NCBI GenBank assembly: GCA_019057375.1
Contig: DXJF01000113.1
Span: 1 to 52,869, forward strand
DNA length: 52,869 nt
From: Candidatus Heimdallarchaeota archaeon
GTDB lineage: Archaea > Asgardarchaeota > Heimdallarchaeia > Heimdallarchaeales > Heimdallarchaeaceae
Direction of reading: 5' to 3'
The stretch's first letter is position 1. Every line of letters begins with the position of its first letter. The notes beneath the pieces are model-generated. The model was not told where the DNA came from, made no database searches, and saw nothing but the letters and a program-made list of their open reading frames with translations. The translations under genes were made by a program, and so were the position numbers. This document shows, piece after piece, positions 32,438 to 36,594 of the stretch.

Positions 32438-32498
32438 TTCTCTCTTTTTTTTCTAATAATTGAAAAAAGTTATTAGAAGACAATGTTTATTTGATTCA

Positions 32499-34043
32499 AT
32501 GAATAATAATTCTGACAAAGTTTTTACTAACAAAATGACTAGAGTTTTAGAAGACAATGTCTTTTTTACAGGAGTAACTATTTTTGAGATGATGGAAACT
32601 GCTGGACAAGTCATAGCAGAAGAAATTGAAAATTATTTTAATTCGAAATATTTGAAGGATATTGTCTTTCTGGTTGGATTTGGAAATAATGGTGGTGACG
32701 GGTTAGTAGCTGCTAGATATCTTCTAGAAAAAGAATACAGCTGTAAGATAATTGTGGTAGGGGATAAAACTACATTCAACTCTTTGGCATCACAAGAAAA
32801 TTACAATAAACTAAAAGCTGTTTTACCGATAGAAAACTGGTATCAGATAAGAGAAATATCTGATATTGAAAGAATATTTGTGGAGGTTGGAAAAGAAAAC
32901 CTTCTCATAGATTGTATCTTTGGAATTGGAATTCAAGGAAGTTTGAGAGAGCCCTATTATTCGTTGATTGATTTCATTAATCAAGATTACAAGGGAGGTA
33001 TAATTTCTGTAGATTTACCTTCTGGGTATGATTCTGAAGTAGATAATGAGATGTTTATCAGAAATCCCAAAAAAATAATATGCCTTGGAAGAAACAAAAT
33101 TGGAGTAAAGATTTTCACTGAAACTGAAATTATAGTCAGAAATATAGGAATCCCATTAAAAGCTGAGAATTACATTGGTTTCGGAGATTTGAAATGGTAT
33201 TACCCTAGAAGAAAATCAAACAGTCATAAGCGTCAAAACGGTGTAATTACAATCATTGCAGGTTCGAAGGATTATATTGGTGCTCCAGCATTAGCTGGAA
33301 TGGGAGCTTTTAGGACAGGGGCAGATCTTATCTTTATTCTTACACCTTCTGATATTAGGGAAACAGTGGCATCTTACAGACCAGATTTTATTACCATCCC
33401 AGCTAGTCAAAAAGAGATAGAGCCATCTGATATTGAAGACCTTTTCTCACATTCAAGGATTGAAGGTTCCAGTTTTATTATAGGACCTGGAATGATGAAT
33501 ACGCAAACTACGAGAAACACTCTATTGAAATTCTTAGAGAATGAAGAAAAGCAACAAGTTGTGATAGATGCAAGTGCTCTAAGTATGATGGATGAAGAAC
33601 ATCTCAAATTGCTTAAGAATCATGATGTTGTTCTAACACCACATAAAGGAGAATTTAGGAGTATTTTTGGTATAAAGTTGACAGGAGATTTAGAATCCGA
33701 TTCTAAAATTGTTACTGAAACAGCTCAGAAATGGAATATCACAATTCTACTGAAAGGAGAAATTGATATAATTTCAAATGGTAAAATAACCAAGTTTAAT
33801 GAAACGGGTCATCCTGGAATGAGCGTAGGGGGAACAGGAGATGTTCTAACAGGAATAGTTGCAGCGTTATTATCAGTAAATAAAGATCCATTTCTTTCTT
33901 CATGTTTAGGTGCTTTTATCTCAGGTGCTGCTGGAGAACTAGCAGCTAGAAGTTTCGGTGATGGTCTTATGGCATCAGATATACCTAATTGCATATATCC
34001 TATACTAGAAAAAGCATTAAATTTTAGAGCTAAAGAATTATGA
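32499..34043 (+). CDS. nnr: Bifunctional NAD(P)H-hydrate epimerase/dehydratase
   Basis: MMETAG, GNNGGDG, DCIFGIG, DLPSG (YjeF_N); GSKDYIGAP, TPHKGEF, GGTGDVLTG (carbohydrate kinase-like). ORF track starts at 32460; ATG 32499 preferred. Confidence 0.93.
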   Translation: MNNNSDKVFTNKMTRVLEDNVFFTGVTIFEMMETAGQVIAEEIENYFNSKYLKDIVFLVGFGNNGGDGLVAARYLLEKEYSCKIIVVGDKTTFNSLASQENYNKLKAVLPIENWYQIREISDIERIFVEVGKENLLIDCIFGIGIQGSLREPYYSLIDFINQDYKGGIISVDLPSGYDSEVDNEMFIRNPKKIICLGRNKIGVKIFTETEIIVRNIGIPLKAENYIGFGDLKWYYPRRKSNSHKRQNGVITIIAGSKDYIGAPALAGMGAFRTGADLIFILTPSDIRETVASYRPDFITIPASQKEIEPSDIEDLFSHSRIEGSSFIIGPGMMNTQTTRNTLLKFLENEEKQQVVIDASALSMMDEEHLKLLKNHDVVLTPHKGEFRSIFGIKLTGDLESDSKIVTETAQKWNITILLKGEIDIISNGKITKFNETGHPGMSVGGTGDVLTGIVAALLSVNKDPFLSSCLGAFISGAAGELAARSFGDGLMASDIPNCIYPILEKALNFRAKEL

Positions 34044-34047
34044 ATAA

Positions 34048-34911
34048 TTAGGGACTTGGTGATAAAGAAACTACAATCGTTCCAATTCCCAAATGAGTAG
34101 CAAGTGCAGGTGTTAAATAATTAATGATTTTTTCACCTAAAGGTATCTTAGTTTCGAGTTCCTTCATAATCTTGTCTGCTGATTCCTTATCGTCACCATG
34201 AGTTATCATCAAATCATATTGTTTGTTCTTCCTTATTCTACTTAGAATTTCTTTAATAACTCTATTTTGTGCCTTTTCTGTTCCAGTAGCTTTATCTACT
34301 GGTTCTAAAACTCCATCTCTAAGCTCAATAATTGGTTTTGCTTTTAACAGATTCCCAACGAAAAATCTAAGATGAGAGATTCTTCCTGATTTCTTTAGAT
34401 TATCTAGATTCTCTACATAACCTACGAGGAGAGATTCATCTCGTATCTCTTCTACTTTCTTAACTATCTCTTCTTCAGGAACTCCCCTTCTTGCTAGTTT
34501 AGCAATTGCTAAAGAAACAAATGCTAAGACACCAGAACCAAATTTTGAATCTATTAAATGAATTTGTTTATCTTTGATTCTTTTCACAACAATTCTTGCT
34601 GATTGAAATGTTGCCGATAACTTAGATGATAGGGTTGTTATAAATATGGAGGAATAATCTTTCATTGCTTCTGAGATTCTGTCAAGAAAATCTTTAGGAC
34701 TTGGAGCTGAAGTTGTTGGTAATTCTTTGAATTCTCTAAGCAATTCATAGTAATCTTCAACTTTAAGATCAATTCCATCTGCATATATTTTATCTTCATA
34801 GTGAATATAAACTGGCACTATATCGATATCATACTTCACAGCTAATTCTTGAGGTAGATCTGAGGTACTATCTACAATTACTTTCACTTTCTTAGTTTCC
34901 AAACAAATCAT
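34048..34911 (-). CDS. DegV family fatty-acid-binding protein
   Basis: VDSTSDL, PTTSAPSP, SSKLSATFQSA, LKKSGRI, THLGIG. Confidence 0.92.
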   Translation of the reverse strand: MICLETKKVKVIVDSTSDLPQELAVKYDIDIVPVYIHYEDKIYADGIDLKVEDYYELLREFKELPTTSAPSPKDFLDRISEAMKDYSSIFITTLSSKLSATFQSARIVVKRIKDKQIHLIDSKFGSGVLAFVSLAIAKLARRGVPEEEIVKKVEEIRDESLLVGYVENLDNLKKSGRISHLRFFVGNLLKAKPIIELRDGVLEPVDKATGTEKAQNRVIKEILSRIRKNKQYDLMITHGDDKESADKIMKELETKIPLGEKIINYLTPALATHLGIGTIVVSLSPSP

Positions 34912-35051: not shown

Positions 35052-35969
35052 TTATCTAGTTTTTCTTGTTTTTCGAATTGCTCTTTCTTCTTCCTTTGCT
35101 CTTTTTTTAACTCTTTTTTCTTCTGCACTTCTAGCTCTCTCTCTTCGTTTTTCTCGTTCTTTCATCTGTTTTTCTTTTTCTTTCTCTTGTTTTTGTTTTT
35201 CTTTGTCAGAGAGTTTCTTAGCTTCCTTCTTTACTACAGTTGGAATTGGTAAATCCTTTGTTTGAGCAGTAACTTTAGCAAAATACTTGAGAACTGTCAT
35301 AGCAAATTTTGTGAGTACTAGTAGATCTGCAGGTTTTTTAGTCATGTTGAATTTTAGCTCGAAATGAGGTTCATCAGTTCGAACAGAAATCCACTGAAGT
35401 TCCTTGGGATATTCTCCAAGAGCTTTCAGGAAAGTTTTGCTCCTTATCAATTGATTAATGGCTCTGACTCTATTGGACTTTATCAAGAATGAGTCATTAA
35501 CTTCTTGTTCAGGAGTTGCAATATCATCAATTTCTATAAGATAATCAAAATCCTTTCTAATAGCTGATTTCATCTTATAAGGTATCACTTCGAATAATAC
35601 TCTGGGTTTATCTGGAAAATTTGCTGCTAAACCGAATGAATCTTTATTTCTAAAGAACAATCCGTCAACTAGCATGGTTGGAAAAGAGGTTCTTGGTAAT
35701 AAAATAATCCAAGCAGAAGTACTAGTTACAGCATACTCTTCACCCATTTGGCACCTAATTTCTACTTGACGATCATTAGGATCTTTTCTAGAATAATTCA
35801 TAATATATGGATCGATTGCTGTAAGAACTTCATCTATATAGAACTCCTTCTTCTTCTTATTAGCAAATTTACCCCAAATATAAAAACCGAGATATAATCC
35901 AATAAATACAAGTACGGGTAGAAGCATCACAAGAATTGATCCAAAGTCGAACAAATCTGAATTAGTCAT
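35052..35969 (-). CDS. Single-pass membrane protein, CCDC47/DUF1682-like candidate
   Basis: TM followed by GKxxN, an alpha/beta cytosolic domain and a long basic C-terminal coiled coil; correspondence to CCDC47 by eye. Confidence 0.6.
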   Translation of the reverse strand: MTNSDLFDFGSILVMLLPVLVFIGLYLGFYIWGKFANKKKKEFYIDEVLTAIDPYIMNYSRKDPNDRQVEIRCQMGEEYAVTSTSAWIILLPRTSFPTMLVDGLFFRNKDSFGLAANFPDKPRVLFEVIPYKMKSAIRKDFDYLIEIDDIATPEQEVNDSFLIKSNRVRAINQLIRSKTFLKALGEYPKELQWISVRTDEPHFELKFNMTKKPADLLVLTKFAMTVLKYFAKVTAQTKDLPIPTVVKKEAKKLSDKEKQKQEKEKEKQMKEREKRRERARSAEEKRVKKRAKEEERAIRKTRKTR

Positions 35970-36030: not shown

Positions 36031-36594
36031 TTATATCTTCATCTGGTCGCTTTTTCTTCTGATAATGATACGTCCCAAATCGATAAAAGCTTCATTAACA
36101 TTTGTTCCTATAAGAGCACAAGTAGAATAGAAATCAATTAATTCAATGTTGGTATATTTATCTTTGAAATTTTCTACAAAAGTCTTCGCTTGCTCATTCC
36201 ATAGGCTATTTTGAGCTTCTTCCATCAAATCTTCTTTATTTCCTAATACTAATATTGGAATGTTTTCATTGATAGATGAATTAAGTTCTTTTAACCATCT
36301 CTCTAGATTAGCAAACGTTTCAGGACGACTCTTGTCAAAAACCAGTAAGCCTCCTTCAGAACCAACATATTGTTTCTCTCTTAGTCTAACATATTCTTCT
36401 TGACCACCAAGGTCCCAGATTTGAAACATAATCTCAATATCTTCATCTATATGTTTATGAGAGGCTAGATCCACTCCAAGTGTGCTCATATAAACCTCTT
36501 CAAGATGAAGTCCCATAAAACTTCTTTTTAAGGTGGTTTTTCCTGTAGCATAATCTCCGAGAAGTACTATTTTGACAGTTCCATAAACAGACAT
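36031..36594 (-). CDS. Rab-like small GTPase (Ras superfamily)
   Basis: G1 GDYATGKTT, switch I STLGVD, G3 WDLGGQ, G4 NKED, G5 TCAL; no C-terminal prenylation Cys. Confidence 0.93.
   Translation of the reverse strand: MSVYGTVKIVLLGDYATGKTTLKRSFMGLHLEEVYMSTLGVDLASHKHIDEDIEIMFQIWDLGGQEEYVRLREKQYVGSEGGLLVFDKSRPETFANLERWLKELNSSINENIPILVLGNKEDLMEEAQNSLWNEQAKTFVENFKDKYTNIELIDFYSTCALIGTNVNEAFIDLGRIIIRRKSDQMKI

What the first reader, a model, noticed from the sequence alone, without database searches (positions are those of the whole stretch)
35052..35969. CCDC47-like protein: candidate archaeal PAT-complex/multipass translocon component
Seen: TM + GKFAN, an alpha/beta domain and a long Lys/Arg/Glu coiled-coil tail. 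Compared from memory with human CCDC47: YIIGKNKN ~ YIWGKFAN; FLKRQDL ~ [27 protein letters not shown] ~ LFEVIPYKMKSAIRKDFDYL; DSLAILSE ~ DSFLIKSN; FTFNV ~ LKFNM; then the basic tail. Established: CCDC47 with Asterix forms the ribosome-associated PAT chaperone for multipass proteins. Inference: an Asgard precursor, lacking the luminal acidic domain.
Basis: inference. Interest (0 to 1): 0.72.

Follow-up and report, generated by a model that had tools for sequence, protein, structure and literature searches.

The report
Long-tailed Heimdall archaeal CCDC47 homologue
This gene of a Heimdall-group (Asgard) archaeon encodes a small membrane-anchored protein that is a genuine relative of CCDC47, the ribosome-docking scaffold eukaryotes use when building multi-pass membrane proteins and which papers say prokaryotes lack; what it does in the archaeon is still inferred.

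Summary
Window 35052-35969 (-) is a real, conserved 305-aa gene. It has a 9-residue N-terminus, one TM helix followed by GKFANKKKKE, a ~190-aa alpha/beta domain, and a 68-aa Lys/Arg/Glu tail (net +15) predicted as one 50-residue helix.

Homology to CCDC47 (Pfam PF07946, ex-DUF1682) is supported in two ways:
- **Sequence:** the window protein scores below Pfam's cut-off (19.3 vs 27.7 bits). Eight of ten orthologues tested pass it, aligned over nearly the whole profile. Core-only versions still score 16-29 bits.
- **Structure:** a template-free AF2 model built from archaeal sequences only gives Z 17.3-17.4 to the chains inferred to be CCDC47. In a search of 48,161 representative chains, only two such chains and mycobacterial TtfA (Z 10.8) reach Z 8.

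The family occurs in 110 of 400 Asgard genomes and is near-universal in the window's class. The long tail is seen only in Heimdallarchaeaceae.

The "PAT complex precursor" reading is only partly supported. No Asterix homologue is detectable, no phylogeny with eukaryotes could be built, and gene neighbours differ between lineages. Ribosome/SecY docking is inference.

Sundaram et al. 2022 state that prokaryotes lack PAT components. NCBI and Pfam already auto-tag some orthologues as DUF1682. This scan has met the family before in at least 23 other genomes.

The parts
35052..35969 (-). Whole gene for the CCDC47-like protein (305 aa)
   Evidence: ORF. PF07946 E=6.7e-4, 19.3 bits. Eight of ten orthologues tested are over Pfam's cut-off. 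AF2 model matches the inferred CCDC47 chains at Z 17.3-17.4.
35871..35969 (-). Short extracytoplasmic N-terminus (aa 1-9) and single TM anchor (aa 10-33) ending in the conserved WG of the W-G-K-x-x-N juxtamembrane motif
   Evidence: Hydropathy. Helix 2-55 in the AF2 model. G33 is nearly invariant across the Asgard-wide alignment A2. Orthologue residues from about 15-29 onward align to Pfam profile positions 8 onward.
35259..35870 (-). Cytoplasmic juxtamembrane helix and alpha/beta globular core (aa 34-237)
   Evidence: The tail-less construct aa 1-237 keeps 19.2 bits to PF07946, matching residues 81-215 to profile 77-211. Structural alignment covers model 12-249 against chain residues 135-416 of 7tm3_4, rmsd 3.6 A over 232 residues. 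pLDDT is mostly 85-95.
35055..35258 (-). Lys/Arg/Glu-rich tail (aa 238-305): linker, then one predicted 50-residue helix (aa 255-304), net charge +15
   Evidence: Composition. AF2 helix 255-304. Tail length (57-63 aa in most members) and net charge (+10 to +20) are conserved in Heimdallarchaeaceae. In orthologues the tail adds 5-15 bits to the PF07946 score. Other Asgard families have only short basic ends of 2-27 aa, plus one 41-aa paralogue.
36031..36594 (-). Ras/Rab-like small GTPase gene directly upstream on the same strand, 61-nt gap (possible operon partner; linkage weak)
   Evidence: PF00071 E=2e-33. The adjacency is kept wherever the upstream side is present in the Heimdallarchaeaceae loci, even where flanking genes have moved apart. 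It is not kept in the same form outside the family.

Best explanation
The gene encodes a minimal archaeal member of the CCDC47 family. An N-out/C-in signal-anchor helix tethers a CCDC47-type alpha/beta domain to the cytoplasmic face of the plasma membrane. In Heimdallarchaeaceae a long, strongly basic helix extends from that domain. Homology, fold, domain order and topology signals are shown. The working mechanism is inferred by analogy with eukaryotic CCDC47: the globular domain and basic helix dock on rRNA and protein near the exit tunnel of membrane-bound ribosomes beside SecYE-beta, while the TM helix sits behind or beside the channel. There the protein would help organise or shield nascent multi-spanning membrane proteins, possibly together with the archaeal Oxa1-type insertase that the genome also encodes. 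The upstream Ras-like GTPase may regulate or recruit it in this family. The stated confidence is for homology combined with a translocon or ribosome-associated role. Homology alone is about 0.9.
For: Sequence:
- PF07946 matches 26 of 32 close homologues at E <= 0.01, best 5.3e-11.
- Eight of ten orthologues tested exceed Pfam's gathering score, aligned to profile positions 8-316 of 326 or 77-325.
- Core-only constructs still score 16.1-29.1 bits, colinear with profile 8-211.
- Representatives of other Asgard families also reach 18-27.9 bits.

Structure:
- The AF2 model used no templates and only archaeal sequences; mean pLDDT 81.9.
- Foldseek top hits are 7tm3_4 (2.5e-10), 9i78_4 and 6w6l_7.
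- VIA Z is 17.4 at rmsd 3.6 A over 232 residues.
- In the Foldseek-independent search only 3 of 48,161 chains reach Z 8, and two are the inferred CCDC47 chains.
- These entries contain CCDC47 according to their papers.

Architecture:
- The domain order is that described for CCDC47: single TMD, globular cytosolic domain, conserved positively charged C-terminal helix that runs along the ribosome to the tunnel exit.
- Here the tail has net charge +15.

Genome:
- An EMC3/TMCO1-family (Oxa1) gene is present, 62.5 bits.
- The family is widespread and vertically coherent in Asgard: 110 of 400 genomes, 25/30, 22/22 and 11/12 in three families of the class.
Against: - No Asterix (PF03669) is detectable in the own genome (E 0.33, noise). 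None is over the cut-off in 83 genomes of the class.
- A profile of the archaeal family does not reach eukaryotic CCDC47 in the exhaustive search or the PDB CCDC47 sequences. The sequence link therefore runs one way only, from the Pfam model to the archaeal proteins.
- No translocon, SRP or ribosomal gene is a conserved neighbour. Neighbours vary by lineage: Ras GTPase, KaiC-like ATPase, CstA.
- Most Asgard members lack the long tail, so ribosome reach may not be the ancestral function.
- The tail's contribution to the Pfam score may be compositional.
- The tail is predicted as a single charged helix, and it matches generic coiled coils and single-alpha-helix domains equally well.
- From memory, eL6, a contact of the eukaryotic globular domain, is not found in archaea.
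Confidence: 0.45

Rival explanations
1. It belongs to a wider prokaryotic superfamily of membrane-anchored alpha/beta 'factor' proteins (TtfA-like). These act as accessory subunits of transporters or other membrane machines. Eukaryotic CCDC47 is just one derived branch, and the archaeal protein has no translocon role.
For: - TtfA (6t84) is the next structural hit, Z 10.8 with 160 residues aligned.
- A cyanobacterial protein (2plg) and YbjN and type III secretion chaperone folds follow at Z 6-7.
- In the ESM Atlas feature search, the nearest unnamed clusters include bacterial ones, and the nearest named ones are TtfA and CCDC47, both at 0.79. These are leads only.
- In other Asgard lineages the gene sits beside CstA transporter or KaiC-like ATPase genes.
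- Asterix is absent.
Against: - The structural match to the inferred CCDC47 chains is much stronger (Z 17.3-17.4 against 10.8) and includes the TM helix.
- The CCDC47 HMM is the only Pfam family matched, across several Asgard lineages.
- The long basic C-terminal helix in this lineage parallels CCDC47, not TtfA.
- The TtfA Pfam model (PF28092) is not in the library held here, so this membership could not be tested.
Confidence: 0.3
2. In Heimdallarchaeaceae it is chiefly a membrane receptor or effector for the co-transcribed Ras/Rab-like GTPase, that is, a membrane-trafficking or signalling scaffold. The charged helix acts as a single-alpha-helix spacer rather than an rRNA binder.
For: - The GTPase gene lies 61 nt upstream on the same strand.
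- The pair stays adjacent wherever the upstream side is present in the Heimdallarchaeaceae loci, even where insertions separate PurA-like or DegV genes from it.
- A second family (f5) has two GTPase genes next to its copy, in convergent orientation.
- The GTPase ends without a Cys lipidation motif, so it would need a membrane partner.
- The tail matches SAH and coiled-coil segments.
Against: - The adjacency is absent in about 14 other sampled Asgard families.
- Small GTPases are common: 32 Ras-family genes in 3.47 Mb.
- Within one family, synteny is not independent evidence.
- A net charge of +15 is unusual for a neutral SAH spacer.
Confidence: 0.15
3. The gene is a eukaryotic contaminant or a recent eukaryote-to-archaeon transfer, not an archaeal lineage gene.
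For: Pfam PF07946 is otherwise described for eukaryotes.
Against: - It is present in 110 of 400 Asgard genomes, including closed single-contig genomes (Ca. Heimdallarchaeum endolithica and aukensis).
- It is embedded in conserved archaeal synteny.
- Local GC is 0.32, the same as the rest of the window.
- Identity to the inferred CCDC47 chains is only 12-14% over structure-based alignments.
Confidence: 0.02

Closest known systems
Eukaryotic CCDC47 (calumin; PAT-complex subunit, part of the metazoan multipass translocon and the fungal SND3 translocon; Pfam PF07946, formerly DUF1682; PDB 7TM3/7TUT chain 4, 6W6L chain 7, 9I78 chain 4)
   Same: The domain order is the same: single TM, cytosolic alpha/beta globular domain, positively charged C-terminal helix. 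The predicted topology places the domain in the cytoplasm. There is a Pfam profile match in orthologues. Fold match is Z 17.3-17.4.
   Different: There is no signal peptide and no acidic luminal domain; only 9 residues precede the TM. The protein is about 305 aa, against about 480 in human from memory. The tail is one 50-residue helix rather than the paired latch helices described for eukaryotes. No Asterix partner is detectable. Sequence identity is only 12-14%. The window protein itself is below Pfam's cut-off.
Tail-less or short-tailed Asgard CCDC47-like proteins (other Heimdallarchaeia families and several other Asgard classes)
   Same: They share the TM plus core and the G33, R93, P122, K164 and P201 positions. 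They are found with one profile in 110 of 400 genomes.
   Different: They end 2-27 residues after the core (one paralogue at 41), whereas this lineage carries a tail of about 60 residues. Their neighbours also differ: KaiC-like ATPase or CstA instead of a Ras GTPase.
Mycobacterial TtfA (trehalose monomycolate transport factor A; PDB 6T84)
   Same: A membrane-anchored protein whose soluble alpha/beta domain superposes on the core: Z 10.8, rmsd 4.3 A, 160 residues.
   Different: Identity is 6% and the score is much lower than for CCDC47. There is no long basic helix. TtfA is a bacterial cell-envelope lipid-export accessory. No HMM test was possible.

Membership tests
CCDC47 / PF07946 (DUF1682) | Score to the Pfam PF07946 profile at or above the curated gathering cut-off (27.7 bits) | tested here: inconclusive
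   The window protein scores 19.3 bits, E 6.7e-4, below the cut-off. Orthologues at 58-81% identity to it score 29.9-42.7 bits in 8 of 10 tested. 26 of 32 match at E <= 0.01. The criterion is met at family level but not by this sequence alone.
CCDC47 / PF07946 (DUF1682) | The match comes from the globular core, not only from the low-complexity charged tail | tested here: met
   Tail-less window protein: 19.2 bits, residues 81-215 against profile 77-211. Tail-less orthologues: 16.1-29.1 bits against profile 8-211 or 8-227, one of them over the cut-off.
CCDC47 / PF07946 (DUF1682) | CCDC47 fold of the cytosolic domain | tested here: met
   VIA Z 17.4 at rmsd 3.6 A over 232 residues to 7tm3_4, 15.1 to 9i78_4 and 11.7 to 6w6l_7. 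These are the top two of 48,161 representative chains. Foldseek E 2.5e-10. That these chains are CCDC47 is inferred: it is the only non-Sec61, non-ribosomal component shared by the three entries.
CCDC47 / PF07946 (DUF1682) | Single TM helix N-terminal to a cytosolic domain (N-out/C-in) | tested here: met
   There is one hydrophobic segment, aa 10-33, followed by KFANKKKKE. The TM helix aligns with chain residues from 135 onward in 7tm3_4. Topology rests on the positive-inside rule and is not experimental.
CCDC47 / PF07946 (DUF1682) | Conserved, positively charged C-terminal coiled coil or latch helices | tested here: inconclusive
   A 50-residue helix is present within a tail of net charge +15, and it is conserved within the family. 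In orthologues it aligns to the C-terminal part of the Pfam profile. It is predicted as one helix, could match by composition alone, and is absent in most other Asgard families.
CCDC47 / PF07946 (DUF1682) | Acidic, Ca-binding luminal N-terminal domain with a signal peptide | tested here: not met
   Only 9 residues precede the TM. This region lies outside the Pfam domain, so it defines metazoan calumin rather than the family.
PAT complex (CCDC47 + Asterix) | Presence of the obligate partner Asterix (WDR83OS, PF03669) | tested here: not met
   Own genome: best E 0.33 inside a 619-aa frame, the same level as bacterial controls. In 83 genomes of the class there are no matches over the cut-off and two weak ones interrupted by stops. 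A small, divergent 3-TM protein could escape the HMM.
PAT complex (CCDC47 + Asterix) | Association with the ribosome-Sec61/SecY translocon | not testable with these tools
   No multimer prediction or experimental data were available, and there is no conserved translocon neighbour.
TtfA family (PF28092) | Match to the TtfA profile | not testable with these tools
   PF28092 is not in the Pfam copy held. Structural similarity only, Z 10.8.

The most novel reading that the evidence does not exclude
The long-tailed Heimdallarchaeaceae protein is a functional forerunner of CCDC47. It would already dock on membrane-bound ribosomes next to SecY and gate or organise multi-pass protein insertion. If so, part of the eukaryotic multipass translocon predates eukaryotes and the ER, possibly under control of a small GTPase. 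This contradicts the published statement that prokaryotes lack PAT components.
Probability: 0.3. Interest if true: 0.85.

Novelty: new variant of a known kind. Interest (0 to 1): 0.62.

Why it matters
CCDC47 is treated in the translocon literature as a eukaryotic invention. Sundaram et al. [quoted passage not shown] The 2025 SND3 paper calls the PAT complex strictly conserved throughout eukaryotes and discusses an archaeal origin only for the Oxa1-type insertase. None of the searched papers or the Eme et al. 2023 supplements mention an Asgard CCDC47.

A widespread Asgard family with the same fold adds a ribosome-translocon accessory factor to the list of eukaryotic signature proteins. One lineage has the same TM-core-basic-helix layout. 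This makes a concrete question testable: did co-translational handling of multi-pass proteins start to become elaborate before the ER existed?

The caveat is that databases already auto-label some orthologues as DUF1682, and function is unproven.

Tried and rejected
**Sequence searches that did not reach CCDC47**
- phmmer of the window protein and of two best-scoring orthologues against PDB sequences found only low-complexity tail noise.
- hmmsearch with family profiles A1 and A2 against PDB sequences gave the same result.
- An exhaustive profile search of 1.84 billion representatives found 23 clusters of 159-302 aa, and none was identifiably a eukaryotic CCDC47.
- The sequence link therefore rests on the Pfam model only.

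- The search for related loci with the diverse alignment A2 failed because it had no conserved stretch. A1 worked.
The contexts of distant homologues were taken from the genome search and the fetch from genomes instead.
- The listing of cluster members gave no names for the distant clusters.
- PF28092 (TtfA) is not in the library.

**Genome searches for partners**
- PF07946 searched against the own genome at genome-level E <= 0.001 gave no match, because this copy scores low.
- Asterix searches were negative.

**Ideas rejected**
- A conserved operon partner across Asgard: the GTPase link is limited to Heimdallarchaeaceae, with a different arrangement in f5.
- Contamination or recent transfer from a eukaryote.

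**Not done**
- No phylogeny with eukaryotes and no profile-profile test, because no tool supplied eukaryotic CCDC47 sequences.

Full report

The minus-strand ORF at 35052-35969 exists as described: ATG start, 305 aa. The sequence has these parts:
- A 9-residue N-terminus.
- One strongly hydrophobic segment at residues 10-33. The best 19-residue Kyte-Doolittle mean is 2.49, and there is no second such segment.
- The motif W-G-K-F-A-N-K-K-K-K-E directly after it, which by the positive-inside rule puts the rest of the protein in the cytoplasm.
- A non-repetitive region of about 190 residues with net charge +1.
- A 68-residue C-terminal stretch with 30 K+R and 15 D+E, net +15.

Local GC (0.32) matches the window. 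The protein has 31 database relatives at 57-95% identity. Those with names are called Heimdallarchaeota or Heimdallarchaeaceae, and two carry the automatic NCBI name "DUF1682 domain-containing protein". I could not check them because no tool provides a eukaryotic CCDC47 sequence.

**2. Homology to CCDC47: sequence**

The only Pfam family matched is PF07946 (PAT complex subunit CCDC47, formerly DUF1682).
- The window protein scores 19.3 bits (E 6.7e-4), below the curated cut-off of 27.7 bits.
- Removing the charged tail (aa 1-237) leaves the score unchanged at 19.2 bits, with residues 81-215 aligned colinearly to profile positions 77-211. The tail alone matches nothing relevant.
- Of 32 close homologues, 26 match PF07946 at E <= 0.01, best 5.3e-11.
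- In a per-protein scan, 8 of 10 orthologues exceed the cut-off (29.9-42.7 bits). Their alignments run from the TM helix to the tail, profile 8-316 of 326 or 77-325.
- Core-only versions of six orthologues still score 16.1-29.1 bits against profile 8-211 or 8-227. Where both forms were scored, the tail adds 5-15 bits.
- Representatives of four other Asgard families also match at 18-27.9 bits.

The link runs one way only. Profiles built from the archaeal proteins do not retrieve CCDC47 from PDB sequences. They also retrieve no eukaryotic proteins from 1.84 billion representatives.

**3. Homology to CCDC47: structure**

An AlphaFold2 model was built without templates from an alignment of archaeal sequences only. 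It has mean pLDDT 81.9 and pTM 0.69. It shows:
- one long helix through the membrane and juxtamembrane region (2-55);
- a mixed alpha/beta domain (56-236);
- a low-confidence linker;
- one helix at 255-304.

Foldseek against the PDB puts three translocon chains on top: 7tm3_4 (E 2.5e-10), 9i78_4 and 6w6l_7. Mycobacterial TtfA follows. Re-alignment gives Z 17.4 at rmsd 3.6 A over 232 residues, with model 12-249 against chain residues 135-416. The other values are Z 15.1, 11.7 and, for TtfA, 10.8.

A Foldseek-independent comparison with 48,161 representative chains finds only three at Z >= 8: 7tut_4 (17.3), 9i78_4 (15.1) and TtfA (10.8). Everything below is generic coiled coil matching the tail, or weak alpha/beta similarity such as 2plg, YbjN and type III chaperones at Z 6-7.

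The tools give entry titles, not chain names, so the chain identity is inferred. The three entries' papers state that they contain CCDC47. CCDC47 is the only non-Sec61, non-ribosomal component common to the TMCO1 translocon, the multipass translocon and the fungal SND3 translocon. The aligned chain begins with a TM helix followed by a globular cytosolic domain and long helices, as described for CCDC47. The homology claim stands at about 0.9.

**4. Distribution and variants**

The close family comes from Heimdallarchaeota MAGs and from the closed genomes of Ca. Heimdallarchaeum endolithica and aukensis.

A profile of the wider family (A2) finds it in 110 of 400 genomes of the phylum:

| Group | Genomes with a match |
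|---|---|
| Window's class, f1 | 25/30 |
| Window's class, f5 | 22/22, often two copies |
| Window's class, f7 | 11/12 |
| Window's class, f4 | 8/12 |
| Other classes, f13 | 5/5 |
| Other classes, f14 | 6/6 |
| Other classes, f24 | 6/7 |
| Other classes, f28 | 4/5 |
| Largest family sampled, f20 | 1/135, weak |

Many genomes are incomplete, so absences are soft.

Measuring what follows the core in one or more representatives of 18 families shows that the long charged helix is a feature of f1 (Heimdallarchaeaceae) only. There the part beyond the profile end is 52-56 residues with net +14 to +15. Other families end after 2-27 residues, usually basic, and one f5 paralogue has 41. Within Heimdallarchaeaceae the tail is conserved in most members in length (57-63 residues after the P-[IV]-P motif) and in charge (net +10 to +20). 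The window therefore carries the most CCDC47-like form of an Asgard-wide family. These data cannot say whether its tail is homologous to the eukaryotic latch helices or convergent.

**5. Context**

- A Ras/Rab-like GTPase gene (36031-36594, PF00071 E 2e-33) lies 61 nt upstream on the same strand, and a DegV gene lies 140 nt downstream.
- The GTPase-CCDC47-like pair is adjacent in the Heimdallarchaeaceae loci wherever the upstream side is present. This includes loci where about 1 kb has been inserted between the GTPase and the PurA-like gene, or about 2 kb between the CCDC47-like gene and DegV.
- Outside the family the arrangement is not kept. f5 has two GTPase genes next to its copy but convergent, f3 has one 2.4 kb away, and about 14 other families have none within 5 kb.
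- With 32 Ras-family genes in 3.47 Mb, this is a hint and no more.
- Other lineages have a KaiC-like ATPase (five families) or CstA and an unknown 220-aa protein (f31, f9) beside the gene.
- No SecY, SRP or ribosomal gene is a conserved neighbour.

**6.

- **Asterix (PF03669):** nothing credible in the own genome (E 0.33 inside a 619-aa frame, like the bacterial controls). Nothing is over the cut-off in 83 genomes of the class. A small, divergent 3-TM protein could escape this test.
- **TMCO1/EMC3-type Oxa1 insertase (PF01956):** present at 62.5 bits, as in other archaea.
- **OPTI/EMC6 family (PF07019):** one borderline ORF, 21.1-22.6 bits against a cut-off of 23.3, covering the whole profile. 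I note it but do not lean on it.

**7. Mechanism**

Shown:
- a membrane-anchored CCDC47-fold protein;
- predicted N-out/C-in orientation;
- a strongly basic helical extension.

Inferred by analogy with CCDC47: in eukaryotes the globular domain contacts the large subunit, and the positively charged helices wedge between Sec61 and rRNA H24 up to the tunnel exit. By the same logic the archaeal protein would dock on membrane-bound ribosomes beside SecY and help organise insertion of multi-spanning proteins.

I put about 0.45 on homology combined with a ribosome or translocon role. The rivals are:
- A TtfA-like accessory of some other membrane machine, about 0.3. This is supported by the TtfA fold match, the variable neighbours, the missing Asterix and the tail-less majority.
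- A membrane partner of the adjacent GTPase, about 0.15.
- Contamination or recent transfer, excluded for practical purposes.

**8. Known or new?**

Sundaram et al. [quoted passage not shown] The SND3 paper calls PAT strictly conserved throughout eukaryotes and discusses archaeal ancestry only for the Oxa1-type insertase. Lewis et al. 2024 report Heimdall TRAP candidates but no archaeal CCDC47.

Searches for CCDC47, DUF1682, PF07946, PAT complex or multipass translocon together with Asgard or archaea found no paper making the link. The Eme et al. 2023 supplements held here do not contain these terms.

On the other hand, NCBI and precomputed Pfam annotation already tag some orthologues. This scan's earlier notes report the same family in at least 23 other genomes, including a "long-tailed form" downstream of a Rab-like GTPase. 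Those notes agree with what I found independently here.

I class it as a new variant of a known kind: a minimal, luminal-domain-less, apparently Asterix-less archaeal CCDC47.

**9. Verdict**

Interest is 0.62.

Noticed in passing
G000 contig C10:4236-4739 (locus L080:1279-1782, + strand): A 167-aa ORF whose C-terminal two-TM half matches the whole EMC6/OPTI-family profile PF07019 just under the cut-off (21.1-22.6 bits against 23.3). A 106-aa two-TM ORF follows it. It could be an archaeal EMC6/OPTI-like partner of the Oxa1-type insertase, but controls ring at weak levels too.
   Followed up: partly
G000 contig C47:80512-81003 (locus L079): An EMC3/TMCO1-family (Oxa1 superfamily, DUF106-type) insertase gene, 62.5 bits, in a 257-aa frame. 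It is the expected archaeal YidC-like protein and the natural candidate co-worker of the CCDC47-like protein.
   Followed up: partly
window 36031-36594 (-): A Ras/Rab-like small GTPase with intact G1, G3 and G4 motifs and no C-terminal Cys lipidation motif. It is operon-like with the CCDC47-like gene throughout Heimdallarchaeaceae. The genome holds 32 Ras-family genes.
   Followed up: partly
loci L059:4003-4668, L069:5889-6569, L070:5887-6597, L071:3484-4149, L073:3995-4675: In five other Asgard families (f7, f4, f3, f2, f29) a single-domain KaiC/RecA-like ATPase of about 220 aa sits directly next to the CCDC47-like gene. In f31 and f9 the neighbours are an unannotated 220-aa protein and a CstA transporter.
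   Followed up: partly
model m97665728736b against PDB 6T84, 2PLG, 5FR7, 1XKP: The CCDC47-type core superposes on mycobacterial TtfA (Z 10.8). It superposes weakly (Z 6-7) on a cyanobacterial protein of unknown function, YbjN/AmyR and type III secretion chaperones. This hints that the CCDC47 cytosolic domain belongs to a broad chaperone-like alpha/beta fold class. No paper in the library links TtfA and CCDC47.
   Followed up: partly
window 34048-34911 (-) and 32460-34043 (+): A DegV-family fatty-acid-binding protein gene and a bifunctional NAD(P)H-hydrate repair (Nnr-like) gene flank the locus. The Nnr-like gene stays near the CCDC47-like gene in several families of the class and in f33.
   Followed up: no
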